Shown here in pieces: positions 2,485 through 59,570 of a stretch of 64,000 nt of DNA. This DNA comes from Microcaecilia unicolor (lineage: Eukaryota). The first letter of the stretch is position 1. Every line of letters begins with the position of its first letter. The DNA is taken from the NCBI RefSeq assembly GCF_901765095.1, contig NC_044037.1, positions 104,231,279 to 104,295,278 on the forward strand, in the 5' to 3' direction. The position numbers were made by a program, and so were the translations under genes. The notes below the pieces were generated by a model, which worked only from the letters and a program-made list of their open reading frames with translations, searched no databases and was not told the DNA's origin.

Positions 2485-2625
2485 CTTTTGGCCTAGATTT
2501 TATACATGGTGGCAAAAAAATCAGCGCCAAAAAAAACCCTATTCTATAAGCCATGCTTAAAGTTAGGCACAGTTTATAGAATAGCACTTATGCCTAGAAA
2601 TCATGTCTAACTTTAGGGTCAGAAA
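2485..2625 (+). mobile_element. MITE-B family 5' fragment
   Basis: ggcctagattttatacatgg...tattctataagc...ttaggcac...tttatagaatag matches the 5' ends of copies at 21290 and 56575. Confidence 0.4.
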
Positions 2626-2727
2626 CAGAAAAAAGCAACACTGGGCCTTCAGGATGGAGATAAATGTAGAATAAAAAGGACTACATTTATCTCCATCCTG
2701 AAGGCCCAGTGTTTCTTTTTTCTGTTT
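2622..2727. repeat. near-perfect hairpin (47-bp arms, 11-bp loop, 1 mismatch)
   Basis: aaacagaaaaaagcaacactgggccttcaggatggagataaatgtag / aataaaaagga / ctacatttatctccatcctgaaggcccagtgtttcttttttctgttt. Confidence 0.7.
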
Positions 2728-2989
2728 CTGTTTATGCTTGTATGCTGTTTTAACTTCTCTTGTGTAACTTTAGGGTCAGACAACCAAACAGCAGCAGCGA
2801 TCCAAGGAAGGACAAACAGCAGGAGTTTATCCAAATGTCAACTTTAATGAAAACAGGACCCAACCTGGCCAAGTTTCGGAAAACCTTCGTCAGGGGTCAC
2901 ATAGGTTTCCACAATACGTGTGGGGCACGTAATTTTTGGATGTGCGTGCTGGGGGCGGAAAGGACATGTTCTGCACTAGTCAGTTACTG

Positions 2990-4560: not shown

Positions 4561-4739
4561 TTTTCTCTGAAGCCTATGGCTAACCTCAATCATAGGAGCC
4601 AACTTTTCAAAATGATTGGGGGTGCTAAATTTTTTTTAAGAGGTGGTGCATTCCCTCACCCCCTCCCTCCCCTCCAAGTTCCAGGCCCCCCCTCTCCTCC
4701 GAATGCCAGTCCCAACCCCAGCCTGACCTCTTCTCCCAC

Positions 4740-5045
4740 AACAGTCCTCGGTCGGTCCGTCCTCGCCTTCCTGCATGCCGCCCAGAATTTTAAAACTCAT
4801 CTTACCTTGGGGTCCTGGCGGCAGCATTGAAAGGCGAGCAGGCTCGGTGCTTCAGCCTTCCCTTCTCTCTCAGCTCTGGTCACGCCCTTACGGAAACAGA
4901 AAATGAGAGCAGGACCAGAGCTGAGAGAGAAGGGAAGGCTGAAGGGCCGAGCCTGCTCGCCTTTCAATGCTGCTGCCGGGACCCGAGGTAAGATGAGTTT
5001 TAAAATTCTGGGTGGCACGCAGGAAGGCGAGGACGGACCGGCGGA
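4740..5045. repeat. large inverted repeat / foldback (arms ~130 bp, loop ~40 bp)
   Basis: 4745-4860 (..ggtcggtccgtcctcgccttcctgcatgccgcccagaattttaaaactcatcttacc..gcattgaaaggcgagcaggctcggtgcttcagccttcccttctctctcagctctggtc) is reverse-complemented at 4900-5040. Confidence 0.65.
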
Positions 5046-5189
5046 GAACTGAGGGAGAAAAGGGCGGGCACCGGGCAGGGTGGCTGGCTGGGAAGGAAAC
5101 TTCCGACTTCCGGTGGGTGCAGAGCTGGTCCTAGGGTTTCTGGCGCCCTCCTGGAGCCTATTAGTCAGCGCCCCTACACATCCAGGGGT

Positions 5190-7505: not shown

Positions 7506-7785
7506 TCTAAAAATTATTCTGATGGTCCTATCTCCACCAATAACCGGTTGCATACTGCAATCTCTGTTCTAACAAAGGCCAAAACTGAATTAGCTTCGAC
7601 AGTGGAATTCTGAGTTACTGTTATTTTAGCAGGTTGTCAGTCACGGGTCTTACTTGCTCTCTGGTCTTTATCCTCCTCTCAACAGCCATTTCCTTATTGT
7701 CCTTCCCCTCCATCGATCAATGCTAGTTTTCTCTCCCCTACCCTCCCGCTCCCATGTTCACCTGCCCGCCCTCTTCTATTTAAAT

Positions 7786-7930
7786 TTACCTCCGTCGCAG
7801 CGTCAGTGAAAGCACTGGCCGCCCGCTAGCAGCCTTCCCTTCGCTTCGCTCGGCAGTGTCCCGCCTTCTTCTGACATCATTTCTGCGACAGTGCTTTCAC
7901 TGATGCTGCGACGGAGGTAAATTTAAATAG
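7786..7930. repeat. foldback: 42-bp inverted repeats separated by ~55 bp
   Basis: ctatttaaatttacctccgtcgcagcgtcagtgaaagcactg ... cagtgctttcactgatgctgcgacggaggtaaatttaaatag. Confidence 0.55.
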
Positions 7931-8439
7931 ACGCTCAGCTGCAGCCTGCGACATCGGAGGGTAAGCGATGGCGGTGCCCTTCAGAAGTCGGCGCCCCCCG
8001 CCCCTGCCAGTGCCTGAGCGGCTGAAAATATTGGGGGTGCTTGAGCACCCACAGCACCCATGGAGTCAGCGCCTATGACCTCAATCCCACTTCGGGTTTC
8101 ACTGTTGGCCAGCCTGAACTATACAGTTCCTTTCCTCTTGTGCTCTCTTCCCCCCCCCCCCTTTCCTGTCATTTATTATAGTTCATTCCCTCCTCTTCTC
8201 CTGTTCTTGTTCAATGTACTATGTCAAAGTACTTAAGTAAAAGTAAAAATTAATGTATATTTTAATACTTTAGTAAAAGTAAAAGAGCAATGAAGATCAC
8301 AAAAAATTAACTTAAGTAAAAAAGTTACTGCCTAATATAATGCTTTTTGAGTAAAAATAAAAAGTACCGTAACTAACATTTTTATCTCAAGCTGCAAAGG
8401 ACTCAAATACAAATCAACTTACGCATACAGTTTTTCCTA

Positions 8440-8795
8440 TATTAGCACACAACTATGGAACACATTACCAAAAAACTTGAAAACCATATACGACCATCTA
8501 CACTTCAGAAAGACACTTAAGACCCACCTGTTTAAAAAGGCATACCCTGCACATCCAACATAACTACCTGAGCTCAGCGACACAACAACGCCAAAGTTCG
8601 TAATGGCCATCACCGAACCCCACCGTCGAACGTTTCCTCTATGTGGTCCTACCACATGAACCTTACCCTATCAAAGCTTCACCTTTGTATTTGTATACAT
8701 CGGAATCTTCAACTGCTCTCCGGCACTATGTAAGCCACATTGAACCTGCAAAGAGGTGGGAAAATGTGGGGTACAAATGTAACAAATAAATAAAT
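8440..8795 (+). mobile_element. LINE-A 3'-end fragment (C-terminal codons + tail), inserted inside the hAT remnant
   Basis: LWNTLPKNLKTIYDHLHFRKTLKTHLFKKAYP then ..ctatgtaagccacattgaacctgcaaagaggtgggaaaatgtggggtacaaatgtaacaaataaataaat. Confidence 0.6.
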
Positions 8796-8849
8796 CCCAA
8801 CAATTTTATTGCTCTACAATTCAATCTACTCCATTTTTGAAAGTGACTG

Positions 8850-8940
8850 TCACTCATATTTTTATTTATTTATTTTATTTGTAGCATTTGTATCCCACAT
8901 TTTCCCACCAATTTGCATGCTCAATGTGGCTTACATTTGC
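8850..8940 (-). mobile_element. LINE-A tail fragment
   Basis: reverse complement of tttgtatcccacattttcccaccaatttgcatgctcaatgtggcttaca. Confidence 0.5.
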
Positions 8941-18842: not shown

Positions 18843-19269
18843 GAATCCCCAGCATATGACATGGAAGGTAAGGTACTGTTCCAGAATCACAACCTGGCTG
18901 AGGTAAGTAATTTCCATAATCACAACCTGGCTGAGTTAAGCCATTTGATTTACCAGATAGAACTTCATAAGTTTTGCTTTGAGCCAGACCTGAAACACAG
19001 CCGAGAACCAAGAACTATTCGGCTGTGTTTGGGGCTTGGCAATCCCTGCAGCCGCAGACTCTGTTTGACCTACCATCAGAGGCTTGCATACAACAGAATG
19101 TACTGAACTGCAGAGGTTTTCTATCCTACATCTCGGGCCCTGTGAAAGGAACAGGCTCGAGGATTCCATTGAATAAATACTTATTTTTGATTTCACCCCT
19201 TTGTCCAGCTATGTTATTTTACTGGCCCACTACCCAACCCTCGCTCGGGGTCTCACAGAGTCACACTCA

Positions 19270-19405
19270 GTGTATCAAAGTAACCACCACTAGGGTGCAA
19301 CAGCAGAAAAAAATGTCCTGTCAATTGTGTGATGATCACATTTCTGTTCCAGTACAAGGTCTGTGAAAGGACATTTTTGCTGCTGTTACACCCTAGTGGT
19401 GGTTA
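19270..19405. repeat. hairpin: ~38-bp near-perfect inverted repeats with ~55-bp loop
   Basis: taaccaccactagggtgcaacagcagaaaaaaatgtcct ... aggacatttttgctgctgttacaccctagtggtggtta; additional 12-bp-stem palindrome aaacacagccga..tcggctgtgttt at 18995-19035. Confidence 0.55.
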
Positions 19406-19651
19406 TTTTGATAAACTGAGGTACAACAAGTTTTGCACAAGATACACAACTCCTGAGGGAGGTGCTGTGCGCCGAAACACAGGTCCTGTGTCGAGTATTA
19501 CCTACATCTCTGTAGTTGGATAGGAAGGCTATTCGTGCAATCCTACTCTTTTACATCCCCGACTCCTCCATGCCCCTCCCAGGTCAAGGTCCTCTCCAAT
19601 TATTGGTACTTATCACCAATTAAGTGCCAACTTACCTCCAATTAGATAATT

Positions 19652-33700: not shown

Positions 33701-35830
33701 CAAACTGTTAGACACCACACCTGTCACAACCAACAGCAAAGATATACCAAGTGTCGACAACCTTGCAAAATACTTCAAGGAGAAAATTGTACAATTACGA
33801 CACAAAATACCCGCAAGCCCTATAGAATACACCGTTCTCCTAGACTGTCTAGATCCAGTAGAAGGAACACACCCAGCAGACAGAACCTGGACCGAATTTG
33901 AACTATTACCAGAAGAACTCATCTCTAAAACTCTCAAAAAATATGCCAAATCTAACTGCAAACTAGACAAATGTCCAAACAGCCTCATGCAAACTGCTCC
34001 TCAACAATTCATAATAAACCTAACAAACCACATAAACTACATGCTACAAAATGGACTCTTCCCAAAAGAAAAAGGAAAAATCTTACTCACACCAATTCCT
34101 AAAGACACAAAGAAAAACACGAGCGAAATAACCAACTACAGGCCAATTGCATCCATACCACTAATAACCAAGATAACCGAAGGTATGGTTACCAAACAAC
34201 TCACAAACTATCTAGACAAACATTCAATATTGCACGATGCCCAATCAGGATTCCGTTCGAATCACAGCACAGAAACAGTATTAGTCACCCTTATGACCAA
34301 ATTCAAACAAATAATTGCAACCGGCAACAATATACTCCTACTACAATTTGACATGTCTAGCGCCTTCGACATGGTTGACCATGAAATCCTACTACACATA
34401 CTTGAATACTTTGGCATCGGAGGAAATGTCTTGAATTGGTTCAAGGGGTTCCTAACCCTGTGCTCGTACCAAGTCACATCAAATTCAACCACGTCCAAGG
34501 CATGGATACCTGAATGTGGAGTCCCACAAGGATCACCTCTCTCTCCAACTATATTCAACCTAATGATGATCCCTTTAGCAAAACTCCTATCAAACCACAA
34601 CCTCAACCCGTATATATATGCCGATGATGTAACCATATACATCCCATTCAAACAAGACATCAAAGAAATCTCCAGTGAAATCAATCAAAGTCTACACATC
34701 ATGAACACATGGGCAGATGCATTCCGCCTGAAACTAAACGCAGAAAAAACCCAAAGCCTGATACTCACCTCCCAATACAACACAACTGAGTTCAACGTGA
34801 TAAACACACCAAACCTAAAACTTCCAATCTCAGAAACGCTAAAAATCCTTGGAGTGACTATCGACCACCACCTAACACTCAAAACTCACGCAAATAACAT
34901 AACCAAGAAGATGTTCTTCAGCATGTGGAAATTGAAAAGGATTAGACCATTCTTCCCAAGATCCGTCTTCCGTAGCCTAGTGCAATCCCTCGTCCTTAGC
35001 CACTTGGACTACTGCAACTCATTATACGCAGGCTGCAAAGAGCAAATACTGAGGAAACTTCAAACAGCCCAGAACACAGCAGCCAGGCTCATCTTCGGAA
35101 AACCTAAATATGAAAGGGCAAAACCACTACGAGAGAAACTACATTGGCTTCCACTCAAGGACCGCGTTACTTTTAAAACTTGCACACTAGTCCATAAGAT
35201 CATTTACGGTGAAGCCCCAGCGTACATGTCTGATTTAATAGACCTACCACCTAGAAATGCCAAAAGATCGTCCCGAACTCACCTCAACCTCCACTACCCA
35301 ACCTGCAAGGGCTTGAAGTACAAGACGATACACGCGTCAACCTTTTCCTACAAGAGCACGAAGTCCTGGAATACATTACCACGCAACCTAAGAATGATTA
35401 ACGAACAAACCTCCTTCCGTAAACTACTGAAGACACACCTGTTTGAACAAACCTACGGAAAGAGCCAAAACACATAGAAACTACTGACTGTTCACAATGC
35501 AATACACATCCACATCTGATCCATCATCCCTTTATCCAGTCAATCACACATTCAACCATGGAACTACAGTATGTACACTATATGTCTAGGTGCCTATTAA
35601 TGCCCTTTTTTCTCTCATTGTCTCCTTCTAATGTCCCTATGTTGTTGTCCCACTGCTATACTACTAAGGATATTCGAATGTCTCGCACAACTCTGTTCAA
35701 TGTATTCTATAACCTAGTCGTAACAAATGTATTTCTATTATTCAAGTCTTATTGTAAGCCACGCTGAGCCCGCAAATAGGTGGGAAAATGTGGGATACAA
35801 ATGCAACAAATAATAATAATAATTATATTA
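30740..35830 (+). mobile_element. full-length L2-clade LINE (LINE-A): ~1.4-kb 5' UTR (CpG-rich block 30870-31850, ~130-bp tandem repeats 31870-32130), ORF2, 350-bp 3' UTR ending in the family tail + (AATA)n
   Basis: tail at 35750-35825 tgtaagccacgctgagcccgcaaataggtgggaaaatgtgggatacaaatgcaacaaataataataataat; 5' boundary inferred from where CR1 copy 1 breaks off (30725). Confidence 0.7.
32190..35477 (+). CDS. LINE-A ORF2: AP-endonuclease + reverse transcriptase + L2-type C-terminal region, 1095 aa, intact
   Basis: ..SIDILDWITTDKLDLLFITETW.. (EN); ..YRPIASIPLITKITE..FRSNHSTETVLV..LLQFDMSSAFDMVDHEILL..GVPQGSPLSPTIFNL..YADDVTIYIP (RT); ..HWLPLKDRVTFK..LWN.LP..FRKLLKTHLF (C-term). Confidence 0.88.
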   Translation: MYRSNTHQLLICHSTQHTEMNTSNTLITIQCLIIFVHANTTQNLDNNNSTTHNPHNTHTHTMHAQNNNPLTYHQSHAQPLNNLPNQRHNNNQPTGTNPEYVHHRRNKENNENNRLNQRKNRQLIKINTSNPTLEPHHPIQLGYVNARSAVSNSIDILDWITTDKLDLLFITETWFHSPTDPAILQTCPPEYKITHWTRNGKKRGGGIALIHKPEFTITITGESTSPQLEIASTRINHPSLIGHLNTILFYRPPGKWQDAQTQLMDFISNTCVSTSNILILGDINLHLEDDTIPSTREFKELLQLWDLQIPNLQPTHEKGHTLDIITNRLEPNSTITLTNTKWTPTLWSDHHKANVTLYWQKIQPNTINKHERTTYTTRGKINPTTFWQQIYQSEWITNASTIQFLQEWDDISITTLDKIAPAQTRTSHRKNANPWFNEELKKLKTQVRRLERAWNKKRDEQTLNDWKQLRRKYKYTIKQTKRLHYKTLIGPNYKDTHKLFNLVNKLLDTTPVTTNSKDIPSVDNLAKYFKEKIVQLRHKIPASPIEYTVLLDCLDPVEGTHPADRTWTEFELLPEELISKTLKKYAKSNCKLDKCPNSLMQTAPQQFIINLTNHINYMLQNGLFPKEKGKILLTPIPKDTKKNTSEITNYRPIASIPLITKITEGMVTKQLTNYLDKHSILHDAQSGFRSNHSTETVLVTLMTKFKQIIATGNNILLLQFDMSSAFDMVDHEILLHILEYFGIGGNVLNWFKGFLTLCSYQVTSNSTTSKAWIPECGVPQGSPLSPTIFNLMMIPLAKLLSNHNLNPYIYADDVTIYIPFKQDIKEISSEINQSLHIMNTWADAFRLKLNAEKTQSLILTSQYNTTEFNVINTPNLKLPISETLKILGVTIDHHLTLKTHANNITKKMFFSMWKLKRIRPFFPRSVFRSLVQSLVLSHLDYCNSLYAGCKEQILRKLQTAQNTAARLIFGKPKYERAKPLREKLHWLPLKDRVTFKTCTLVHKIIYGEAPAYMSDLIDLPPRNAKRSSRTHLNLHYPTCKGLKYKTIHASTFSYKSTKSWNTLPRNLRMINEQTSFRKLLKTHLFEQTYGKSQNT

Positions 35831-36294: not shown

Positions 36295-37203
36295 GTGGGC
36301 AAAGGTTGGCTGGCTGAGATTCAGGTCGGAATGGATGCAAAAATCAGCCGGAAAGACAGCACACGAAGCCGCATGGGCGAAAACAAAATGGCGGAGATTG
36401 GCGCGTCGAGTGAGTCGGTGAGTTCCGCATGGGCGGCAGAGATAACCGCGGAAGTCTCAACCCTATTAGAGGCATCAGTCGATAAAAAACTGCAGAAAAT
36501 CTCAGATCAAATAGTGCAAATGGACGGTAAACTGGAAAGCTTACGCACAGATTTGACTGGGTTCCAGCAGAGGCTGTCGGACGTTGAAGATCAGTGCCAG
36601 CAATGTGAAAGCAAGCAAGAGCAAATGCAGGAGCAACTGAGCAAACTAGAAGCTAAAGTCGAAGATCTAGAAAATAGATCACGCCGGAATAATCTAAGGC
36701 TGGTGGGGCTGCCGGAGTCTATACGCGAGGCAGAGCTGTGGGAGTTCCTTGAAACATGACTGCCCAAGACGTTAAACTTACCCGGGCTGAAGAAGGAATT
36801 AAAAATTGAGCGAGCGCATCGGCTGGGCCGCGCTGGACAAGACTTAGAGAGGCCACGTGTAATAATATGCAAAATTCTCAACTATACCCACAAACAAGAA
36901 ATATTGCGAGCATGGAGGGCGAGAGGCAAAGTGCAGTATGAGACCCGCAATGTCCTTTGTTTTCAAGATTTTTCAGCCGCAGTGGCGGCCCAGCGCAGGC
37001 AATTTGTGGAAGTGTGCAAGCGCCTGTATGAAAAAAAGGATAACTTCGCCCTGATGTTCCCAGCCAAACGTAGAATTCAGTATAAGGGCAAACAACACTT
37101 CTTCAGCTCACATGTGGAGGCCTTGCACTTTGCTAACAAAATGGAGCAGAGACCGGAGGAAGAGAGCGAGGTCGCAAGTGTTAGCAGCCCAAGGGATCCC
37201 TGA
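36295..37203 (+). pseudogene. L1 ORF1p, single frame with one in-frame TGA at 36760
   Basis: ORFs 36295-36759 and 36904-37203 are in the same frame and the intervening 141 nt has no other stop; ..LEAKVEDLENRSRRNNLRLVGLPE..PRVIICKILNYTHKQEILRAWRARGKVQYETRNVLCFQDFS. Confidence 0.75.
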
Positions 37204-37893
37204 GAAAGGAGACGAATCAGGCCCGGTTGGATTATGTCCAGAGGCAACAAGTTGACATGAAAGCAGCGGAAGATAGAGTGGACATTGACTACATGCAAGT
37301 TGGTGTGACTGTTCAGCATGGACTGTAAAATAAATATAGAATCCTTGGGTACATGCAGGTACTTTCTCGGTCCATGGAGGGCTTACTATCTAAGTTTTTT
37401 GTACCAAGGGCCGTGTCTATATTTAAGTATAACAGATGTTAATTTAAGGTTAATGTTGTATATGCTGAGAAGCAGGACTGTGTAATGTTAGCAGTTTACA
37501 ATTAATAGGGGGAGAAATATAATAATCTGGAGGTCAGCGCTAGGGGGAAGAGGGGGGGGGGGCGTGACTCGTTCTCTAGCGAGAACTACAGGACAGGAGA
37601 GGAAGGAATTCAGGGGTGGTGGGAGGGAAGGGGGAGGGGAAACAGTGGAAGGGGGGTGTGGGAGGGAGGGTTCTCCTTTTTTTTTTTTCTTCTTCTCATT
37701 TGTCAGTTTCATACGGTTATCAACAATCCTGCTATACGGTTCGGAATGGATGTGGGTGCTGGGGTGGAATGCTGCAGGTCAAAGGAAGGAGGGTGCTCAT
37801 GGGCTGGGGGGCACCCTTCAGTGTGCAGAGTTATCAGATATTGTTATGGATATAAGACAGAAGGCTGAACCCACTTAGGTTAATCTCCTGGAA

Positions 37894-40800
37894 TGTGGGG
37901 GGGATTTCCTCACCTGTCAAACGTACTAAAGTCCTGCAGGCATTGCAGAGACACAGAGCAGACATAGCATTCCTCCAGGAGACCCATCTCTCCAATAATG
38001 AGCACAGCAAATTCCAGAAGGGTTGGGTGGAAATGGCAGTAGGCTCTCCAGCACTGGGTAAAAAGGGAGGAGTGTTGATATTAATTCGGAGGGGCCTGCA
38101 GATGCGAATTAAAACAATAAAACGGGATGAGGGAGGTAGGATAGTGATAATGGAAGTAGAAATAGGCACATCTTCATATAACCTGTGCAATATATATGCA
38201 CCCAATGTGTATGACAAGAAATTCTATAACAAGTTATTGGAACTGCTGGGCTCCTACCAGGGGGGCAATGTCATACTAGGAGGGGACTTCAACATGGTGA
38301 TAGACCCTGGGATTGATAGATGTGGTGAATTGGGTTTGCAGCATAGATTTCAATCACGAGGTGTGCCTTTCCTCTGCTCAGCCCTAAACTTGATAGATGT
38401 GTGGAGGGTGTTGCACACCTCGCAGAGGGACTATACTCACACCTCCAGAGCACACTTGACCCAATCCCGTATTGATTATTTTCTCATATCCCCGGCACTG
38501 TTTTCTCAAGTGCCAAAAGCAGAGATAGGCCCATGCGAGATTTCAGACCATGCGATAATATGGCTTGAACTACAGGTCACTGGAAGAGGGCTTGAGAAGG
38601 GAGGGTGGAGATTTCCATTTGAATTGTATAGAGATCCAAATTTTAAGTCATTCATAAGTGAAAAATGGCAGGAATTTGAACAATTTAATGGAGATCACCG
38701 ACACAATGCGGTACTGTACTGGGAAACAGCCAAAGCAGTTATGAGGGGAGAGGTGATAGCCAATAGAGCAAGAGCCAGGAAAATGAGGGACAAAGAGATC
38801 CTTCACTTGGAAAGAGAAGTTCGGGCGAGAAGAAAGAGACTAGGGGAGGAAGTCACGGATGAGAACAAGGAGTTGCTCATAACTCAGAAAAACCTAAATG
38901 AGCTCCTTCATCAAAGAGCACAGAAAACACAAATGTACTATAAACACCAGCTATTTCAATATGAAAACAAAGCAGGCGCATTATTAGGCAGGCTGGTGCA
39001 AGGGAAGAAAGGGCCCTCAAGGATTCTACAAATGAAGGATGGAGGAGGGAATCTCCTAAGGGAGACAGGAGATATTATAGGGAGATTTAGGGAATTTTTT
39101 ATGGCGCTATATGCAGATCCTACCAATATTGTGGAAGACAGTAACTTATATCTAACAAACCAAAATCTGCCCAAGATCACAGAGGAGCAAAGAGAGACTC
39201 TAAACAATCCTATTGTGGAAGGGGAATTGATGTTGGCCCTACAGCAGAGTGAATTACATAAGGCGCCGGGACCAGACAGATTCAGTATAGCATTCTATAA
39301 GATCCTACAAGAGCAGGTCACACTTCCCCTGTTAGATTTATACAACAACATGGTCTCAACCGGGACAATACCAGACTCCCTTAACATAGCAAAAATTATA
39401 TTATTACAAAAACCTGGGAGGGATGAAACTGAGGTAAGTTCCTATAGACCAATTTCCCTATTGAATAGTGATCTTAAATTATATGCGAAGATCCTGGCCA
39501 ACCGACTGGCAAAGCTTTTGCCTTGGTTAATAGCACCTCCTCAAGTTGGGTTTGTGCAAGGGAGGACAGTGGCAAAGAATATGAGGGCCCTGCTGGCATC
39601 CTTGGAGACAGTGGAACGACTGAAAAGGCCCTCTCTGGTTGTCAGTTTTGATGCGGAGAAGGCCTTTGATAGGGTGGTGTGGGGCTTTCTGTTTGCGGTG
39701 CTGACTAAGATGGGCATTGAAGGGGCTTTCCAAGAGGTGATAGGAGCACTCTATGTAAATCCCCAGGCATATTTGTGGATCAAGGGGGAACAGTCACCCT
39801 TATTCCCAATCAGGAGGGGTACGAGACAGGGGTGTCCTCTCTCGCCCCTACTATTTGTCTTGGCATTAGATCCATTGATCAGGGAAATTACGGATCACCC
39901 GGAAATAGAGGGGGTAAATTGGGGACCCGAAGGGTTTAAGGTATCTGCTTTTGCAGATGATATACTGGTTCACCTTACCCAACCAAAATGTTCGTTGGAG
40001 GCCTTATTAGAACTCTTTAGGGAATATGGGGATTTCGCTGGTTTTAAAATAAACTATTCAAAATCACTAGCGTTAGCAACTGACAATAGTGTGAGGCAGA
40101 TGTGGGGAGCAGCATTCCCACTGCGATGGGCATCAGAGTCACTCCAATACTTAGGGGTACAGATCCCCAAGAAAACATCGGAAATACATTTGATGAATAT
40201 AGGCAATAGGATCGCAGTTTTGAAGGACCGGCTAGACAAATGGGGAGTCCTGCCACTCAACCTGCATGGGAGAGTGCATCTGTTTCGTATGGTGGAATTT
40301 CCACGATGGTTATACTTATTTCAGGTACTCCCCATACGATTACGGGCTAAAGATTTAAATCAAATCTTCAAACATGTCAGGAAATTTATTTGGAGGGGGT
40401 CGAAGCCAAAACTCCCTTTGAAGTTAATGATGGGGTCGTGGAGAGAGGGAGGCATTGGATTACCAGACCTCCGTCGCTACAACCAGGCCAGTTTACTCCA
40501 GCACCTGGGTGATTGGTTATTAGATAGGCAAGATTATACCCCCTGTAGCCTGGAGCAAGAGTGCTTCAAACCTTTTCACTTATATTTTTTGTTGCAATGC
40601 CCGAGCCGCCAACTCCCGACATGGGTAAGCAACAGTGTATTGGTAAGACCTTTGAGACAGGTATGGAGAGAGTTAAATGAGACCTGGGGGCTAGCGGTGG
40701 ATATAACAGATCTTTTACCTCTGCAGGGTAACCCACAGTTCTCACCAGGTACGGAGAACAAAGTACTTTGTAGTTGGGCAACGATGGGGATCACCAGGTT

Positions 40801-41098
40801 GGAACATGTACTGGATTCTAAGGGACGATTATTGGAGCTAGGAGCTCTAGGGGTAGGTATCACTCAGAATCATCAATTTGCGTATTATCAGTTAGCACAT
40901 TATGCTAGATCTTTAGAGCAAGGGAAATTGAGCAGTGGACATGGGCGCCATATAAGGGCATTCTTTAGTTCCGTGCAAGGGAGGTGTTTATCGGTCTCTG
41001 GATTAGAAAAAGCGTTGGGGGAGTTGAGTAGGGGTAGAGATACAGAACGTATTTTAGGGAAATGGGCCCAAGATCTGAAGCGTCCGAACCTGAAATGA
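37894..41098 (+). CDS. L1 ORF2 endonuclease + reverse transcriptase, open for 1067 aa (frame open further upstream; C-terminal Cys domain 41099-41659 cut off by in-frame TGA 41096 and TAG 41271)
   Basis: LISWNVGGISSPVKRTKVLQALQRHRADIAFLQETHL.. (EN); ..SLVVSFDAEKAFDRV..RGTRQGCPLSPLLFVLALDPL..AFADDILVHL (RT); downstream same-frame ..CSKCGQREGTLYHYL*ECYKIQNFWRQI.. Confidence 0.85.
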
Positions 41099-41912
41099 GA
41101 CTTTCAGAAGTTATCGGCTAGAATTCCCGCCTTGTCGAGAAACGCCGCCTTGAGGGAATGTCAATACAGGATTTTATATAGGGCATACATGTCAAAATAT
41201 CAAGTATCCAAATTTGGAGGAGAGGTTGATTCCTTATGTTCTAAATGTGGGCAGCGGGAAGGCACATTATATCACTACCTTTAGGAGTGCTACAAGATCC
41301 AGAACTTCTGGAGGCAAATTGTGGGATTTTTAGAGTCGGTATTAAAGAGCAGGATCCCGCTTACTCCGCAGGGTCTACTCTTAGATCAGTATGAGTTATT
41401 TGTCTTGCACACTGGAGAGGCCCGGCAGTTCATCAGGAAAGCCAGTTTAGTAGGTAAGAAACTGATTTTACAGGCTTGGGTACACTCCGAACCCCCGGAT
41501 TACTGGCATTGGAGGAATAGTCTGTATGAGCTGCTGATGATGGAGAGGAGAGAAGTGGGATCCTCCCCAAAAGGAAAGAGGGCATTCCTGAAGATTTGGG
41601 AGCCATATATACAGTCATTGGCACCCAGGGCTCGTAGTTTTATTCTGAACCAATTATGAAGTGGCCATAAACTGAGTTTTTTCTTCTTCTTCTTCTTTTC
41701 TTTCTTTTTCTTTTCCATCATTTATTTCTTTAGGAATAATAGGATGGGGGGAGTAGGTGGACAAAAAGGGAGAAGTCTGGGTTGTTTAATTCCAAAGTGT
41801 ATGGGAGTTCCGCTAAGGTGGATTTGATATTACACTTATGCTATATACAATGGTTAACAGAACAAGTTATAGCAATTGTTGTAGGTAGATTGGTATAGTA
41901 GAATAACCTGCT

Positions 41913-42948
41913 TATAATCGAACGAGAAAAACGCCCAAGTTCCGACCTAAATCGGGAGATGGACGTTTATCTCACAAAAACGAATAAAGCGGTATAATCG
42001 AAAGCCGATTTTTGGACGTTTTCAACTGCACTCCGTCGCGGATGTGGACAAAGTTGATGGGGGCGTGTCAGAGGTGTGGCGAAGGCGGAACTGGGGCGTG
42101 GTTATCTGCCGAACAAAGATGGGCGCATTTCACCGATAATGGGAAAAAAGTATGCGTTTTTAGCTAGAATTTAGGACACTTTTCCTGGACCCTGTTTTTT
42201 CACGAATAAGGCCCCAAAAAGTGCCCTAAATGACCAGATGACCACTGGAGGGAATCGGGGATGACCTCCCCTGACTCCCCCAGTGGTCACTAACCCCCTC
42301 CCACCACAAAAAATGAAGTTTCACAACTTTTTATTTTCACCCTCAAATGTCATACCCAGCTCCCTGACAGCAGTATGCAGGTCACTGGAGGAGTTGTTAG
42401 GGGGTGCAGTGGACTTCAGGCAGGTGGACCCAGGCCCATCCCCCCTACCTGTTACAATTGTGCTGCTTAATGCTTATTAGTCGTCCAACCCCCCCAAACC
42501 CACTGTACCCACATGTAGGTGCCCCCCTTCACCCCTTAGGGCTATAGTAATGGTGTAGACTTGTGGGCAGTGGGTTTTGAGGGGGATTTGGGGGGTTCAA
42601 CACACAAGGGAAGGGTGCTAAGCACCTGGGAGCTCTTTTACCATTTTTTTTGTTTTTGTAAAAGTGCCCCCTAGGGTGCCCGGTTGGTGTCCTGGCATGT
42701 GAGGGGGACCAGTGCACTACGAATCCTGGCCCCTCCCACGAACAAATGCCTTGCATTTATTCGTTTTTAAGCTGGGCGCTTTCATTTTCCATTATCGCTG
42801 AAAACCAAAAACGCCCAGCTCACAAATTGTCGAATAAAACATGGACGTCTATTTTTTCCCAAAATACGGTTCGGTCCGCCCCTTCACGGACCCGTTCTCG
42901 GAGATAAACGCCCATGGAGATAGGCGTTTCTGTTCGATTATGCCCCTC
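41913..42948 (+). mobile_element. DNA-C: ~1-kb non-autonomous DNA transposon with ~22-bp TIR ATAATCGAAC(G)AGAAAAACGCC
   Basis: 5' cttataatcgaacgagaaaaacgcccaagttccgacctaaatcgggagatggacg ; 3' ..ggagataggcgtttctgttcgattatgcccctc; second copy at 46378-47447. Confidence 0.6.
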
Positions 42949-43839
42949 TAAGTCTGCCACAATAAGAGTGACGCTCTCAGGAATGGGGGAGGGGGCCATC
43001 AGAGCACAGGACCCAGGACCTCCCCCGGAACGGGAGTCAGTCCAATAAATGAAAAGTTGAAGCACACACACATTGACCACCACTCAGAGTGGGGGGGAGG
43101 GGTAGAGACAATATGTTAAAAGTTTGATGATGAGCTGTATCATATGGTTTAAACAGAGCATGTTTGTATACTTTGAATCTCTGTATATTCAGCAGGTTGA
43201 AGGTGTTTCTTTTGAGTTGTCATCAATAAAAAATGTTGAACCATAAACCCAAAAATAATTTTTCTTTGTTCTTAAAAAACAATCGGAAGAGCCTCTGTTG
43301 ATCAGGTAACTAATGTCGCCGTGGTTAATTCAGTTTCGGAGGTTTCCAACAAGGCAGAGACATCCATAGAATTTTGTTGTTGTTGAACAGATTCTTTCTT
43401 TGATTTATTGTAACCAGGTACCTTTCTTGTGCAGCCACAGATAGAACAATCTCCTCCAGCCACAGGCTCCCGGTACAATGAAGAAATAGATGTCCACCAG
43501 TAACTTCAATCTTAAGGACTTTTATTCCCTGCAGGTTTCTAGTACACAGTTCCAACAGCAGCATTCACCTTCAATCTTAAGCACATATAAGCCACCTGAA
43601 AGAGTGTGGCCAATAGTCCCCTTTAAGCAGCAGGCTATCAGCACATACCAGGATTCAATACAGGCTTACAGTCAGCTCCAGTCTGGGCTCTTTATCCAGT
43701 GCACAATAAACAGTAGTTCAATTCCCAAGACACAGTTCTTTCAGTTCATCATCACAGTTCAGTCACCAAGCAGCAGTCTCTACCTTCTATCCTTCAGGAG
43801 AGTTCAATACTTTAGGGACACCCTCTACCCAAGGAATTT

Positions 43840-45240: not shown

Positions 45241-45414
45241 TGCTATTGAGACAGACATGGGGAAGCAACTGCTTGCCCTAGCATTTGTAGCATGTAATCT
45301 TGCCATGATTTGGGTTTCTGCCAGGACCTGACTTGGCCACTGTTGGAAACAGGATACTGGGCTAGATGGACCATTGGTCTGACCAATATGGGTACTCTTA
45401 TGTTCTTTTGTACT

Positions 45415-46148
45415 CAGTTAGCACCAGGTTAGCGTGGGAGCCCTTACCACCACCTTAATGGGTGGCGCTAAGTGCTCCCCCCAGCCAGTGGCGTTCCGTG
45501 GTTGCCTGACACCCAGGGCGGATCGCCACTGCTCCCCCCTCCCCCCCGGGTGCAGGGCAACACGGCACCCACACACATACACACACAGTCCCCACTTTCC
45601 TTCCAAGTTCCAGCTCCGTCCACCCCAGCGTGGCGCCTCGCATCTGCAGCGCAGCTGTAAAAAAAAGAAAATCGCCTCGTCATCGGCCCTTCCCTCACTG
45701 TGTCCTGCCCTCTGACATAACTTCCTAATTCCTCGAGGGCGGGACACAGTGAGGGAAGGGCCGGCGATGAGGTGATTTTCTTCTTTTTACAGCAGTTCTG
45801 CAGATGCGAGGCGCCATGCTGGGGTGGACGGAGCTGGAACCTGGTTGGCAGGTGGGGACTGCATCGGGGGGGGGGGGGAAGGCGGTTCCATGCCGGGGGG
45901 GGTGTGGATGGACGGAGCGGAGCACCCCCCCACCCGCTGACACCCGGGGCGGACCGCCCCCACCGCCCCGCCCTTGCTTCGCCACTGCCCCCAGCATGGC
46001 CACACAGTAAGATCAATCTTACCTCATGGCCATGTCATTTTTTCAGCCTTTTTACCCACTGCGGTAAAAAGGGCCTCATCGTGCAGCAAAAGTGGCCCCC
46101 ACCACTACCGCAGGGCCCTTTTTACCGCAGCTTGGTAAAAGGACCCTA
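45415..46148 (+). mobile_element. MITE-A-related element carrying a large internal palindrome (perfect-looking core arms ~115 bp at 45598-45710 / 45732-45845)
   Basis: 3' end ..ccctttttaccgcagcttggtaaaaggaccctat; core ttccaagttccagctccgtccaccccagcgtggcgcctcgcatctgcagcgcagctgtaaaaaaaagaaaatcgcctcgtcatcggcccttccctcactgtgtcctgccctc | 20-bp spacer | reverse complement. Confidence 0.55.
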
Positions 46149-46377
46149 TAGTTAGTCAAATAATAAAGCTATAATGCATCCACTCTTCCTGTGTAAAACA
46201 TACTAAACAATTGGAACCTCAAATCTCCTGATAGGGGGTTGTAATATTGTTGGATATTCCCCGTCACTTTGGGAGTCCATTTATATCATTGGTTCCTAAG
46301 AGGAAATAAAAGAGCCAGTGTAAAAAAAACCTCCTAGCTGATGGAGAAAATCAACTTAACATAGTAACATACATGGA

Positions 46378-47447
46378 GGGGCATAATCGAACGCGAACGC
46401 CCATTTGTAAAAACGTCCATCTCCGAGAACGGGTCCGTGAAGGGGCGGGCCGAATCGTATTTTAGAAAAAGATGGACGTTTATCTTTAGTTTAGAAAATA
46501 CGGTTTGTGCCGGGCAAATGCATAGGATTTGGGTGTTTTTTGAGCTAGGCATTTTCGTTTTTCAGCGATAATCAAAACCAAAGCACCCCAGCTCAAAAAC
46601 GAACAAATCCAAGGCATTCCCAGAGTGGGTTGATTAGATGTCCTTCCCTTTCCATTAAGTCCCTCCAAGTTTCTGTCAGCCAATCACAGCTGTTTAGCTG
46701 ACATCGTGTCAGCTAAACAGCTGTGATTGGCTGACAGAAACTTGGAGGGACTTAATGGAAAGGGAAGAACATCTAAACAATTGATTCATGTGGTGCAGTG
46801 CTTAGAACACTAGCCTGGGAACCAGAAGGTGGCTGGTTCAAATGTCCTTTTTTACTAATTTTTAATTTGGACGTCTCCAATTGCACTTGCATGTTTTTTT
46901 TCCCTTCGGATTTTTGCTCTCTGCATGGGTCCGGGCAGCACCAACTAAACTAAATTTGCTCTGGGGACCAGCATGCTGCTGTCATGGAGCTAGGGATGAT
47001 ATTTGAGGCTGGCATAGAGGCTGGAAAAAAAGTGTTTAAAGTTCGGGTTTTTTTGGTGGGAGGGGGTTAGTGACCACTGGGGGAGTCAGGGGAGGTCATC
47101 CCCGATTCCCTCCGTTGGTCATCTGGTCATTTAGGGCACTTTTTGGGACCTGTTCGTGAAAAAACAGGGTCCAGAAAAAGTGTCCTAAATTCTGGCTAAA
47201 AAAGCCTTTATTTTTTCAATTATCAGCCGAGCGCGCCCATCTCTCCTCAGTCGATAACCACGCCCCAGTCCCGCCTTCACCATGCCTCCAACACGCCCCC
47301 GTCAACTTTATGCGTTCCCGTGACGCAGTGCAGTTGGAAACGCCCAAAATCGGCTTTCGATTATACCAATTTGGGCACCCACAAGAGAAAGACGTCCATC
47401 TCCCGATTTAGGTCGGATTTTGGGCGTTTTTCTCTTTCGAAAATAAG
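46378..47447 (-). mobile_element. DNA-C copy 2 (inverted orientation), inserted into the microsatellite tail of a CR1-B element; carries a ~400-bp internal substitution (46640-47040)
   Basis: ggggcataatcgaacgcgaacgcc.. ..ggcgtttttctctttcgaaaataag termini; flanks catagtaacata / atagtaacatagtaaatgaaggcag are the (ACTATGTT)n tail of CR1-B. Confidence 0.55.
46625..46790. repeat. near-perfect ~165-bp palindrome (arms ~80 bp) inside DNA-C copy 2
   Basis: ttgattagatgtccttccctttccattaagtccctccaagtttctgtcagccaatcacagctgtttagctgac atcgtg tcagctaaacagctgtgattggctgacagaaacttggagggacttaatggaaagggaagaacatctaaacaattgattc. Confidence 0.75.
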
Positions 47448-48110
47448 CTGGATAGTAACATAGTAAATGAAGGCAGAAAAAGACCTGAACGGTCCATCCA
47501 GTCTGCCCAACAAGATAAACTCATTTTACATGGTATGTAATACTTTATATGTATATCCGAGTTTAATTTGTCTCTGCCTTTCTCAGGGCACAGACCATAG
47601 AAGTCCGCCCTGCACTGGTTTTATTCTCCAAATACCAGCGTCGCCACCCAATGTCCATTAAGATTCCATAGATCCATTCCTTCTAAACAGGATTCCTTTG
47701 TGTTTATCCCACGCATGTTTGAATTCCATTACCGTTTTCATCTCCACCACCTCCCGCGGGAGGGCATTCCACGTATCCACCACCCTCTCTGTGAAAAAAT
47801 ATTTCCTGACATTAGTCCTGAGTCTACCTCCCTGTAACTTCAATTCATGTCCTCTAGTTCTACCACCTTCCTGTCTCCAGAAAAGGTTCGTATGCGGATT
47901 AATACCTTTCAAATATTTGAACGTCTGTATCATGTAACCCCTGTTTCTCCTTTCCTCCAAGGTATACATGTTCAGGTCAGCAAGTCTCTCCTCGTACGGT
48001 TTGCAATGCAAATCCCATACCATTTTCGTAGCTTTTCTTTGCACTGCTTCCAGTCTTTTTACATCTTTAGTCAGATACGGCCTCCAAAACTGAACACAAT
48101 ACTCCAACTG
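47448..48110 (-). mobile_element. CR1-B (second CR1 subfamily) 3' fragment: ORF C-terminus + 3' UTR + (ACTATGTT)n tail (tail continues at 46340-46377 beyond the DNA-C insertion)
   Basis: ORF 47658-48107 (-) ..EYCVQFWRPYL..VQRKATKMV..YEERL..LEERRNRGYMI..RTRGHELKL..VRKYFFTERVVDTWNALP; 3' UTR (rc) ..ttgggcagactggatggaccgttcaggtctttttctgccttcatttactatgttactat. Confidence 0.7.
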
Positions 48111-49559: not shown

Positions 49560-49900
49560 CTATGTTCACAGTCCACTGCACTGACCACTAGGCTACTCTT
49601 GGGAGCTGTTTGCCACTCTGTCATACAGCCTGGTATCACCTTTCAGTTTCAGTTCTTAAGGGGGTGGGAGGGGGACAGCATCCACTGGGGCATTAAGGAA
49701 GGGTCAAGTCTTAATCCCTCCAGTGGTCAGCTGGTCAGTTAGAGCGCCTTTTTGTAACAGATGTGATTGAAACAGGTCTAGATAAGTATGTCCTTTTTTG
49801 CCTTGGACGTTTCTTCCTGTTCTATTATTGATGAAAGACATCCAACTTTTGGGCCTGCCCTAGTCCCACCCAAAACATGCCTCCAACACACCCCTTTATT
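49560..49900. mobile_element. diverged DNA-C-related fragment
   Basis: ..gggggtgggagggggacagcatccactgggg..ccctccagtggtcagctggtcagttagagcgcctttttg..ggacgtttcttcc..catgcctccaacacacccc parallels DNA-C 47040-47300. Confidence 0.3.
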
Positions 49901-56384: not shown

Positions 56385-56568
56385 TCCATTGTACGATTCC
56401 CTAATGTGGCCGTGCCACATGAACTTTATCTTACCACAATATCACTTTGTATTTGTTCACACCGGAGCCTGCAAAGGTCTCTCCGGTACTATGTAAGCCA
56501 CATTGAGCCTACAAATAGGTGGGAAAATGTGGGATACAAATGTAACAAATAAATAAATAAATAAATAT
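56385..56568 (+). mobile_element. LINE-A 3'-tail fragment
   Basis: ..ctatgtaagccacattgagcctacaaataggtgggaaaatgtgggatacaaatgtaacaaataaataaataaataaat. Confidence 0.6.
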
Positions 56569-56574
56569 GCAGCC

Positions 56575-57090
56575 TAAGAGCTAGATTCTATGTATGGTGA
56601 CTAAAAAAATCAGTACAAAAAACCCCACCGCTTAAGCGGTATTCTATAAGTTGTGCCTAAAGTTTGGCGCGGTTTATAGAATAAACACTTAAGCGGACAG
56701 GTCGTGCATAAATTTAGGCACCACCATTTGAACCAACGAAAACTTGGTGCAAATGCCCCATCTAAATTTATGTGTGGAGCACTGTTATTCTATATTTAAG
56801 CATGTAACTCAAAACCATGCCCCCAATCCACCCCAAAACACCCATGACCTTCCCATTTCCACGTCCCCTTTTTTGGACCATATGTAAATTTTAGGCACGG
56901 ATCCCACACCTAACTTTACGTGCGTAATCCACAATTAAATCTAATTAGTGCCAATAATTGTTAAAAAGCCAATTATTAGCACTAATTAGCTCATTAATTT
57001 TATTAAATTGCACACACAAATCAGAGCCACTTCTAAATTTGCATGCACAATTTTGGGAGATCTTTATAGAATCAGGCGGTATGTAACTAA
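56575..57090. mobile_element. MITE-B copy
   Basis: 5' gagctagattctatgtatgg ; 3' tctttatagaatcaggcgg; internal ttaggcac, attagtgccaataattg, attagcactaattagc. Confidence 0.55.
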
Positions 57091-59274: not shown

Positions 59275-59570
59275 GAAGCACTGCTAGTTTGCTGTTAGAA
59301 GTACTTCTGGTTTTGGTGCTGTAGGAAGCACTTCAGTTTGCTGTTAGAAGTACTTCTGGGTTTGGTGCTGTAGGAAGCACTTCAGTTTGCTGTTAGAAGT
59401 ACTTCTGGTTTTGGTGCTGTAGGAAGCACTGCTAGTTTGCTGTTAGAAGTACTTCTGGGTTTGGATGCTGTAGGAAGCACTTCAGTTTGCTGTTAGAAGT
59501 ACTTCTGGGTTTGGTGATGTTACAGGCACTTCAGTTTGCTGTGAGAAGTACTTCTGTAGCTTTGTGCTTT
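59275..59570. repeat. 58-bp minisatellite x5 (gctgtaggaagcacttcagtttgctgttagaagtacttctgggtttggt)
   Basis: direct read; embedded in a larger ~440-bp-period repeat (59160-59700). Confidence 0.75.

What the first reader, a model, noticed from the sequence alone, without database searches (positions are those of the whole stretch)
46625..46790. Long, essentially perfect palindromes (hairpin-forming DNA) at several sites
There is a 165-bp palindrome at 46625-46790 with ~80-bp arms and a 6-bp centre atcgtg. Further palindromes lie at 4740-5045 (~130-bp arms), in the 45598-45845 core (~115-bp arms), at 2622-2727 (47-bp arms, one mismatch), at 19275-19404 (38-bp arms) and at 7786-7930 (42-bp arms). 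Arms this long with near-zero mismatches must be evolutionarily very young or actively maintained. They may be foldback/MITE-type elements, hairpin by-products of hAT-like excision and repair, or precursors of hairpin small RNAs (endo-siRNA or miRNA-like). The 46625 palindrome carries CCAAT-box-like cagccaatcacagctg motifs on both arms and lies inside a DNA-C element in place of ~400 bp of that element's normal interior. Such palindromes are also candidate fragile or replication-slippage sites.
Basis: seen in the sequence. Interest (0 to 1): 0.6.

Follow-up and report, generated by a model that had tools for sequence, protein, structure and literature searches.

The report
Transposon-derived hairpin palindromes, mixed origins
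The long DNA palindromes are real, but they are unrelated by-products of transposable elements in a repeat-filled, probably caecilian (amphibian) genome region, with no sign of a dedicated function, so this is ordinary repeat biology.

Summary
All six palindromes exist and are far beyond chance: 14 close inverted pairs here against 0 in 20 simulated windows. "Essentially perfect" holds for only three. These are 46630-46780 (74-nt arms, 2 mismatches, 61-bp perfect core, 3-nt centre TCG), 2620-2730 and 7775-7931. The two longest are 88-91% matched, and their mismatches look like ordinary decay.

The palindromes do not resemble one another, and none has a second copy in the window. No Rfam family reaches threshold. 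The setting is dense LINE and transposon DNA, probably caecilian.

Origins are mixed:
- 45586-45861 lies inside an inserted ~500-bp hAT-like element with a perfect 8-bp target duplication. A related repeat copy lacks the insert.
- 2620-2730 looks like a small hAT-type foldback element.
- 19266-19420 abuts the terminal repeat of a 1.15-kb element.
- 8728-8936 is two inverted LINE tails.

The flagship at 46630-46780 sits in a non-autonomous transposon, where about 306 bp differ from the other copy. It has no target duplication. Its arms weakly resemble that transposon's ends in "inside-out" polarity. This favours a young local inverted duplication by template switching over a mobile foldback element. 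Whether it recurs elsewhere in the genome could not be tested. Interest is low.

The parts
46630..46703 (.). Left arm of the flagship palindrome (74 nt; exact core 46643-46703)
   Evidence: 97% complementary to 46707-46780. The 61-nt core is an exact reverse complement.
46704..46706 (.). Centre / loop TCG
   Evidence: 3-nt loop in the minimum-free-energy hairpin.
46707..46780 (.). Right arm of the flagship palindrome
   Evidence: DNA hairpin energy is -86.3 kcal/mol with z -21.4; RNA energy is -140.6 kcal/mol with z -21.5.
46650..46666 (-). Motif GGAGGGACTTAATGGAA in the left arm, resembling the host transposon's terminal repeat GGAGGGGCATAATCGAA (14 of 17)
   Evidence: Suggestive only: nhmmer E=2.5 window-wide.
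46744..46760 (+). The same terminal-repeat-like motif in the right arm. It reads away from the palindrome centre ('inside-out' polarity).
46677..46692 (+). CAGCCAATCACAGCTG (CCAAT plus CAGCTG). Its mirror copy is at 46718-46733 on the - strand.
46368..47454 (+). Ends are GAGGGGCATAATCGAAC ... TTCGAAAATAAGCTGG.
41904..42956 (-). Copy 1 of the same transposon family, about 80% identical, flanked by TTA on both sides
46619..46924 (+). Segment of copy 2 unrelated to copy 1's interior (42425-42744). It holds the palindrome, a tRNA-like SINE-head-like stretch (about 46786-46845) and T-rich sequence.
   Evidence: The SINE-head resemblance is from memory, not tool-tested. ARAGORN and Rfam found no tRNA.
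45586..45861 (.). Palindrome with 127-nt arms at 88% (45586-45712 / 45735-45861)
45486..45987 (.). Inserted hAT-like element that contains the 45586 palindrome. Ends are CAGTGGCG.../...CGCCACTG. The 8-bp target duplication CCCCCAGC is at 45478-45485 and 45988-45995.
   Evidence: the only solution found; 0 of 400 random and 0 of 70 GC-rich control intervals give such a solution; the paralogous host-repeat copy 22484-22698 lacks about 523 bp here.
4721..5069 (.). Palindrome with arms of about 147 nt (4742-4888 / 4906-5051) at about 90%, GC-rich, downstream of a decayed L2-like ORF
2620..2730 (.). 111-bp foldback with 50-nt arms and 1 mismatch. Ends are CAG...CTG. The flanking 8-mers TTTAGGGT / TTTATGCT match at 6 of 8. 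There is also a 23-nt direct repeat at 2601-2623 / 2758-2780.
19266..19420 (.). Palindrome with 47-nt arms at 91%. Its right arm abuts the inner edge of the right terminal repeat of a 1.15-kb element (18402-18564 / 19415-19552).
7775..7931 (.). 43-nt arms with 1 mismatch and a 71-nt spacer. CpG-rich, no target duplication.
8728..8936 (.). Inverted pair made of two L2-type LINE 3' tails.

Best explanation
The palindromes are a mixed set of transposon-derived inverted repeats in LINE- and transposon-dense DNA that is probably caecilian. They are not one family and not a dedicated functional element.

The flagship (46630-46780) is a young inverted duplication inside a non-autonomous terminal-inverted-repeat transposon. 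One 74-nt stretch was copied in reverse next to itself, leaving a 3-nt turn-around (TCG). That stretch may comprise a transposon-end-like motif plus about 36 nt lying outside it. The most likely cause is a polymerase switching template, folding back and then switching again, during replication or during repair of a transposon-associated break. This replaced part of the element's interior.

The other palindromes arose in other ways:
- as the interior of a hAT-like insertion (45586);
- as a small hAT-type foldback element (2620);
- as a subterminal hairpin beside a long terminal repeat (19266);
- as two LINE tails inserted back to back (8728).

Shown: the structures, their context, the lack of relatedness, the target duplication and the empty-site-like paralogue for 45586. 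Inferred: the template-switch mechanism and the absence of function.
For: - Structures and significance.
- No sequence is shared between palindromes, and there are no extra copies in 64 kb.
- Setting: intact L1, L2 and CR1 ORFs. The CR1 ORF is 86% identical to a Microcaecilia unicolor protein. An L1 ORF2 has its best identity, 47%, to another M. unicolor entry. Caecilian genomes are 68-73% repeats and LINE-dominated (PMC10195157).
- Flagship context: it is embedded between two blocks about 80% identical to a second copy of the same transposon, and 46619-46924 is unrelated to that copy's interior. A third decayed copy shares copy 1's sequence near the right junction.
- Flagship as a mobile unit: no target duplication or terminal-repeat solution exists at or near the arm ends.
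- Arm-to-end resemblance: the arms resemble the host family's ends. The local alignment score is 15 against copy 1 with 0 of 200 shuffles as high. The match to copy 2's left end is 21 of 27, and the motif matches at 14 of 17. Polarity points outwards from the centre.
- Age: both mismatches lie in the outer 13 nt of the arms and the inner 61 bp are exact.
- Literature: template switching is documented to create perfect inverted repeats in one event, and to homogenise and extend imperfect ones (PMC10710096; PMC13100816 abstract).
- Palindrome 45586: perfect 8-bp duplication with CAGTGGCG ends, 0 of 470 control intervals, and a paralogue lacking the insert.
- Decay in the long palindromes: 11 of 17 and 11 of 19 mismatches are transitions, and 8 and 7 lie in CpG context.
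Against: - Genomic copy number of each arm could not be measured. No tool here reaches a caecilian assembly: metagenome and prokaryote scans found nothing, as expected, and exact-protein look-ups failed. The flagship could therefore be the standard interior of a multi-copy subfamily.
- The arm-to-transposon-end resemblance is not significant window-wide. nhmmer gives E=2.5 and 9.6, and the arm's best local score against the rest of the window is matched by 5 of 30 shuffles. It is nominally significant only when the search is restricted to the host element.
- No ancestral or orthologous sequence is available to show which arm is the copy.
- For 2620-2730 two readings conflict: an 8-bp duplication matching at 6 of 8, or a 23-nt direct repeat.
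- 4721-5069 and 7775-7931 remain unassigned.
Confidence: 0.55

Rival explanations
1. The flagship is itself a foldback or MITE-type mobile element, or the standard interior of an amplified subfamily of the host transposon. It would be multi-copy in the genome and would have arrived here by transposition rather than being made in place.
For: - Other palindromes in the same window do look like such elements: 45486-45987 with an 8-bp duplication and 2620-2730 with CAG...CTG ends.
- The arms carry transposon-end-like motifs.
- TTGATT occurs directly at 46630-46635 and again at 46781-46786. This could be a degraded 6-bp duplication.
- Non-autonomous transposon families often have variable interiors (general knowledge).
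Against: - No solution combining a terminal repeat with a target duplication exists at or near the arm ends.
- The end-like motifs face inwards, so the termini would lie at the centre rather than the outside.
- There is no second copy of either arm in 64 kb that does contain three copies of the host family.
- The TTGATT repeat overlaps bases that also extend the inverted symmetry, so it is ambiguous.
- DNA transposons are about 20-fold rarer than retrotransposons in caecilians (PMC10195157).
Confidence: 0.25
2. One or more palindromes are transcribed and act as long-hairpin small-RNA precursors (endo-siRNA or miRNA-like). For example, an inverted copy of a transposon end could silence that transposon family.
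For: - The predicted RNA hairpins are extremely stable. The flagship gives -140.6 kcal/mol with z -21.5.
- The flagship's arms may contain transposon-end sequence. This is the architecture of the maize Mu killer locus (from memory).
- Template-switch hairpins can become miRNA genes (PMC10710096).
Against: - No Rfam family reaches its gathering score. The sub-threshold hits are to many unrelated miRNA models on both strands, which is what any perfect hairpin gives.
- Perfect stems of 61-147 bp are unlike animal pre-miRNAs (general knowledge).
- No expression or conservation data are available.
- The longer palindromes are decaying with CpG-type substitutions that break pairing.
Confidence: 0.07
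3. The near-perfect palindromes are assembly artefacts, that is chimeric fold-back reads.
For: Cannot be excluded without reads. Early long-read assemblies can contain inverted chimeras (general knowledge).
Against: - The arms are only 43-147 nt long. They are embedded in continuous sequence with no N and carry mismatches and asymmetric spacers of 3 to 71 nt.
- Several sit in coherent biological contexts such as a target duplication or the edge of a terminal repeat.
- Missed-adapter artefacts usually mirror kilobases (general knowledge).
Confidence: 0.03

Closest known systems
Template-switch mutations that create or perfect inverted repeats (quasi-palindrome correction; the four-point template-switch model; PMC10710096, PMC13100816)
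   Same: A single event yields a perfect reverse-complement copy beside its template with a very short turn-around. It replaces pre-existing sequence rather than simply inserting. It can homogenise the inner part of an imperfect repeat, and the flagship has an exact 61-bp core with mismatches only at the outer ends.
   Different: Documented events are mostly tens of bases. Here the copied tract is 74 nt, and up to about 147 nt in other cases. No ancestral sequence is available to demonstrate the switch points.
Foldback elements and MITEs of the hAT superfamily (8-bp target duplication, ends beginning CAG/TAG)
   Same: Element 45486-45987 has a perfect 8-bp duplication and CAGTGGCG ends. 2620-2730 is a 111-bp unit made almost entirely of two 50-nt arms with CAG...CTG ends.
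   Different: The flagship has no duplication and the wrong polarity of its end-like motifs. Copy number is unknown for all. The terminal repeat of 45486-45987 is only 8 of 10.
Internally rearranged non-autonomous transposons produced by abortive gap repair, and 'double Ds'-type inverted structures in maize Ac/Ds (from memory)
   Same: The interior of a terminal-repeat element is replaced by unrelated filler and inverted duplications while both ends are kept.
   Different: The host family here is not shown to be hAT. Copy 1 is flanked by TTA/TTA, which hints at PIF/Harbinger. No excision history can be shown.
Mu killer (maize): an inverted duplication of a transposon end that makes a silencing hairpin RNA (from memory)
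   Same: An inverted duplication that may include a transposon terminal sequence plus adjacent DNA.
   Different: The arms are 74 nt rather than kilobase scale. There is no evidence of transcription or silencing, and the similarity to the transposon end is only about 70-80%.
Human palindromic AT-rich repeats (PATRRs) at translocation hotspots (from memory)
   Same: Near-perfect palindromes of a few hundred bp with tiny spacers, capable of cruciform extrusion.
   Different: PATRRs are AT-rich. The palindromes here are 39-58% GC and lie in transposons.

Membership tests
Foldback / MITE mobile element (flagship 46630-46780) | Target-site duplication directly flanking the terminal inverted repeats | tested here: not met
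   Searches found no 6-10-bp duplication with matching termini within 130 nt outside or 15 nt inside the arm ends. The only candidate is an ambiguous TTGATT at 46630 and 46781.
Foldback / MITE mobile element (flagship 46630-46780) | Transposase-recognised termini at the outer ends of the unit | tested here: not met
   The only transposon-end-like motif (GGAGGGACTTAATGGAA) reads away from the centre on both arms, so the presumed termini face inwards. The motif similarity is itself only suggestive.
Foldback / MITE mobile element (flagship 46630-46780) | Multiple dispersed copies in the genome | not testable with these tools
   There is no other copy in the 64-kb window. No caecilian genome is reachable.
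hAT-type non-autonomous element (45486-45987, containing palindrome 45586-45861) | 8-bp target-site duplication | tested here: met
   CCCCCAGC is present at 45478-45485 and 45988-45995 as a perfect match. None of 400 random or 70 GC-rich control intervals gives such a solution.
hAT-type non-autonomous element (45486-45987, containing palindrome 45586-45861) | Short terminal inverted repeats beginning CAG/TAG | tested here: met
   CAGTGGCGTT against CAGTGGCGAA (8 of 10).
hAT-type non-autonomous element (45486-45987, containing palindrome 45586-45861) | Empty site lacking the element | tested here: inconclusive
   A paralogous copy of the host repeat (about 70% identical, not an orthologous site) at 22484-22698 lacks about 523 bp at this position.
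hAT-type foldback MITE (2620-2730) | 8-bp target duplication with CAG...CTG termini | tested here: inconclusive
   The termini CAGAAACAGAAA match at 12 of 12. The flanks TTTAGGGT / TTTATGCT match at 6 of 8, nominal p about 0.004. A competing 23-nt direct repeat lies at 2601-2623 / 2758-2780.
Known miRNA or other curated RNA family (Rfam 15) | Covariance-model score at or above the family's gathering threshold | tested here: not met
   There are no hits in the whole window. The best sub-threshold hits are 95.5 against 200 (MIR839) and 62.4 against 97 (mir-5880), on both strands and spread across many unrelated families.
Template-switch-generated inverted repeat | One arm ancestral and the other absent in the ancestor or outgroup, with switch points explaining the change in one event | not testable with these tools
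   No orthologous or ancestral sequence is available. Consistent features are replacement of interior sequence, a 3-nt turn-around and an exact inner core.
Palindromic AT-rich repeat (PATRR-like fragile palindrome) | AT-rich composition | tested here: not met
   GC content is 0.43 for the flagship and 0.39-0.58 for the others.
Inverted pair of retroposon copies | Each arm matches other dispersed copies of a LINE or SINE | tested here: met
   Met only for 8728-8936, whose arms match L2 3' tails at 6463-6543, 35740-35819, 56479-56558 and 60669-60748. Not met for the six listed palindromes.

The most novel reading that the evidence does not exclude
The flagship is an inverted duplication of a transposon end plus adjacent DNA. 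When transcribed, it would form a 74-bp perfect hairpin that yields small RNAs against the terminal repeats of its own transposon family. This would be a vertebrate counterpart of the maize Mu killer locus. More broadly, template switching at transposon ends would be a recurrent source of such self-targeting hairpins in caecilian genomes.
Probability: 0.05. Interest if true: 0.6.

Novelty: new member of a known kind. Interest (0 to 1): 0.2.

Why it matters
The result is mainly a clean-up. A striking-looking set of long palindromes turns out to be ordinary, mixed transposon debris, and it should not be treated as one class, as maintained structures, or as candidate RNA genes without expression data.

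There is modest wider value. The window shows three separate cases in which a hairpin-forming tract replaces or sits inside the interior of a non-autonomous transposon: 46630, 2620 and 45586. With access to whole caecilian assemblies, this would be a simple system for asking how often template switching at transposon ends makes new inverted repeats in a LINE-dominated amphibian genome.

Tried and rejected
- **One family?** I compared the palindromes with each other and with the whole window using BLAST at word sizes 7-9. Only 9-16-nt matches in C/T-rich stretches appeared, all at E>=0.05. The idea that 4740, 7775 and 45586 share a conserved centre was dropped.
- **Known RNA?** Rfam at gathering thresholds gave nothing. 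An E-value scan of 45400-47100 gave only generic hairpin hits below threshold. ARAGORN found no tRNA.
- **Other genomic copies?** Exact-word scans of the metagenome and prokaryote-genome collections found nothing, as expected for vertebrate DNA.
- **Reaching caecilian DNA?** Look-ups by exact protein for three window ORFs or hits and for two Microcaecilia proteins were all 'not on record'. An L2 ORF search gave no close relatives.
- **Flagship made of two retroposon copies?** Rejected, because neither arm matches anything else in the window.
- **4721-5069 as two inverted LINE 3' ends?** Rejected, because only a 21-nt weak match lies outside the arms.
- **The two halves of host copy 2 as separately inserted elements (46376-46669 and 46745-47451)?** Neither has matching 3-bp or longer flanks (read directly).
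- **The SINE-head-like piece (46786-46845)?** There is no second copy in the window.
- **CACTGTG/CACAGTG heptamers near the centre of 45586?** Judged to be chance.

Full report
**What the window is.** The 64 kb is vertebrate DNA packed with transposable elements. It holds long ORFs of two L1-type LINEs, an L2-type LINE and CR1-type LINEs, many short dispersed repeats and no N. The CR1 ORF is 86% identical to a Microcaecilia unicolor protein. One L1 ORF2 has its best identity, 47%, to another M. unicolor entry. A caecilian origin is therefore likely. Published caecilian genomes are 68-73% repeats, dominated by LINEs, with DNA transposons about 20-fold rarer by bases (PMC10195157).

**Checking the observation.** All six palindromes are present.
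- The flagship spans 46630-46780. Its arms are 74 nt with 2 mismatches. The inner 61 bp of each arm (46643-46703 and 46707-46767) are exact reverse complements. The centre is the 3-nt TCG.
- As single-stranded DNA the flagship folds into one hairpin of -86.3 kcal/mol (z -21.4). As RNA the value is -140.6 kcal/mol.
- 2620-2730 (50-nt arms) and 7775-7931 (43-nt arms, 71-nt spacer) each have a single mismatch.
- The two longest are much less perfect. 4742-4888 / 4906-5051 is about 90% matched. 45586-45712 / 45735-45861 is 88% matched. Their 17 and 19 mismatches are mostly transitions, and 8 and 7 of them lie in CpG context.
- 19266-19420 has 47-nt arms at 91%.
- The window contains 14 close-range inverted pairs, against none in 20 composition-matched simulations. 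All tested palindromes fold far better than shuffles.

However, 'essentially perfect' applies to three of six, and the mismatch pattern of the long ones looks like ordinary decay rather than maintenance.

**Are they one kind of thing?** No. No arm matches any other palindrome or any other place in the window. Short shared words between 4740, 7775 and 45586 lie in C/T-rich sequence and are not significant. No Rfam family is matched at threshold. Below threshold, the hairpins hit many unrelated miRNA models on both strands, as any perfect hairpin would.

**Palindrome 45586-45861.** It lies inside an inserted element, 45486-45987. The ends are CAGTGGCG... and ...CGCCACTG, and the element is flanked by a perfect 8-bp direct repeat CCCCCAGC. 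This is the signature of hAT-superfamily transposons. None of 400 random or 70 GC-rich control intervals gave such a solution. The element interrupts an older repeat. A second copy of that repeat at 22484-22698 lacks about 523 bp at this point and has a short 13-bp-stem hairpin there instead.

**Palindrome 2620-2730.** It is a 111-bp unit made almost entirely of its two arms, with CAG...CTG ends. The flanking 8-mers TTTAGGGT and TTTATGCT match at 6 of 8, so it could be a small hAT-type foldback element. A 23-nt direct repeat (2601-2623 / 2758-2780) offers a competing reading as a local duplication. The palindrome occupies the place of about 230 nt of interior present in another copy of the surrounding repeat at 56.6 kb.

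**Palindrome 19266-19420.** Its right arm abuts the inner edge of the right ~150-nt terminal repeat of a 1.15-kb element at 18402-19552.

**Inverted pair 8728-8936.** It is simply two L2 3' tails in opposite orientation.

**Unassigned.** 4721-5069 and 7775-7931 could not be assigned. Both are CpG-rich relative to the window and lack target duplications.

**The flagship in context.** Two copies of a roughly 1.1-kb non-autonomous transposon lie in opposite orientation at 41904-42956 and 46368-47454. They are about 80% identical. Their ends are GAGGGGCATAATCGAAC and TTCGA(T/A)(T/A)ATAAGC(A/T)GG. Copy 1 is flanked by TTA on both sides, which hints at PIF/Harbinger but is not established.

Between the two homologous blocks, 46619-46924 in copy 2 is unrelated to 42425-42744 in copy 1. 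A third, decayed copy at 49570-49894 shares copy 1's sequence near the right junction, so copy 2 is probably the derived form. The derived segment holds three things: the palindrome, a stretch that from memory resembles the tRNA-like head of a CORE/MIR-type SINE (not confirmed by ARAGORN or Rfam), and T-rich sequence.

**Is the flagship a mobile foldback element?** The tests do not favour this.
- No target duplication with matching termini is found at or near the arm ends.
- Restricting the comparison to the host element, the arms resemble the element's own terminal repeat. The local score is 15 against copy 1 with 0 of 200 shuffles as high. The match to copy 2's left end is 21 of 27. GGAGGGACTTAATGGAA matches GGAGGGGCATAATCGAA at 14 of 17. 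This is followed by a GGACATCT motif like the family's subterminal GGACGTCT repeats.
- The polarity is 'inside-out'. On each arm the end-like motif reads away from the centre, so about 36 nt of 'outside' sequence per arm lies between the motifs. A foldback element would have its termini on the outside.
- This resemblance is only suggestive. Window-wide it is not significant: nhmmer gives E=2.5 and 9.6, and the arm's best score elsewhere in the window is equalled by 5 of 30 shuffles.

**Most likely mechanism (inferred).** A polymerase leaving a transposon end ran about 36 nt into adjacent DNA and folded back at a tiny turn-around (GACA-TCG-TGTC). It copied 74 nt of its own product or the sister strand, then switched again. 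This would have happened during replication or during repair of a transposon-associated break. The result is a perfect inverted duplication that overwrote part of the host element's interior.

Template switching is documented to make perfect hairpins in a single event, and to homogenise and extend imperfect inverted repeats (PMC10710096; PMC13100816). Both mismatches lie in the outer 13 nt of the arms, which has a nominal chance of about 3% under uniform decay. This is compatible with inner-arm homogenisation but is weak evidence.

With 2 mismatches in 74 nt and only one CpG, the duplication is much younger than the divergence between the host-family copies (about 20%).

**Rivals.**
- The palindrome may be the standard interior of an amplified subfamily, or a foldback MITE in its own right (confidence 0.25). 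This cannot be excluded because genomic copy number is untestable here.
- A functional hairpin-RNA locus, for instance a Mu killer-like silencer of the host family, is possible but has no positive evidence (0.07).
- An assembly artefact is unlikely given the short arms, the mismatches, the asymmetric spacers and the coherent contexts (0.03).

**Verdict.** The finding is real as an observation and ordinary in interpretation. It is a mixed collection of transposon-derived inverted repeats. The flagship is best read as a young local inverted duplication inside a non-autonomous transposon. These are new instances of known kinds of structure. Interest is low unless small-RNA data or whole-genome comparisons show a function or a recurrent mechanism.

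Noticed in passing
window 36295-41098 (+), 12290-16836 (-), 32190-35477 (+), 27755-29338 (+): Long, apparently intact LINE ORFs are present: two L1-type elements with ORF1 and ORF2, one L2-type and one CR1-type. This suggests recent retrotransposon activity. The CR1 ORF is 86% identical to a Microcaecilia unicolor protein, pointing to a caecilian origin.
   Followed up: partly
window 26007-27177 and 27264-28432: A roughly 1.25-kb partial tandem duplication lies within or next to a CR1-type element, at 72% identity.
   Followed up: no
window 8728-8790 / 8874-8936: An inverted pair formed by two L2-type 3' tails. The same tail family also occurs at 6463-6543, 35740-35819, 56479-56558 and 60669-60748.
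   Followed up: yes
window 45995-46032: A 22-nt mini-palindrome CACAGTAAGATCAATCTTACCT (46003-46024) is flanked by the 8-bp direct repeat CATGGCCA. It looks like a minimal hAT-type insertion or excision remnant next to the hAT-like element.
   Followed up: partly
window 22538-22567: The copy of the host repeat without the hAT-like insert carries a perfect 13-bp-stem hairpin (GCAGTAATGGTGG GCTC CCACCATTACTGC). This is the position where the other copy holds the ~500-bp insert.
   Followed up: partly
window 2493-2617, 56581-56718, 20088-20135: A short repeat family has its own internal hairpin (2539-2584) and recurring TAA(A/C)TTTAGG motifs. Each of the three copies has an inverted repeat of unrelated sequence 3-215 nt downstream, at 2620-2730, 56933-56999 and 20232-20317.
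   Followed up: partly
window 59275-59556; 5867-6329; 9045-9117; 59924-60076: Tandem arrays: a 49-bp unit with 5.7 copies at 92%; C/T-rich units of 40-84 bp; (AG)36; and a 15-bp unit with 10 copies.
   Followed up: no
window 7775-7931, 4721-5069, 45586-45861: The GC-rich palindromes have a higher CpG observed/expected ratio (1.18, 0.67 and 0.65) than the window (0.42). They are either young or unmethylated.
   Followed up: no
window 46786-46855: Directly after the flagship's right arm lies a stretch that resembles the tRNA-like head of a CORE/MIR-type SINE (GTGGTGCAGTGC...GGTTCAAATG), followed by TTTTTT. The resemblance is from memory. ARAGORN and Rfam do not call it, and there is no second copy in the window.
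   Followed up: partly
window 18402-19552: A 1.15-kb element with terminal inverted repeats of about 150 nt (116 of 164 aligned columns). It contains a nested short repeat (18751-18817) whose family also occurs at 21037-21103 and 63033-63099.
   Followed up: partly
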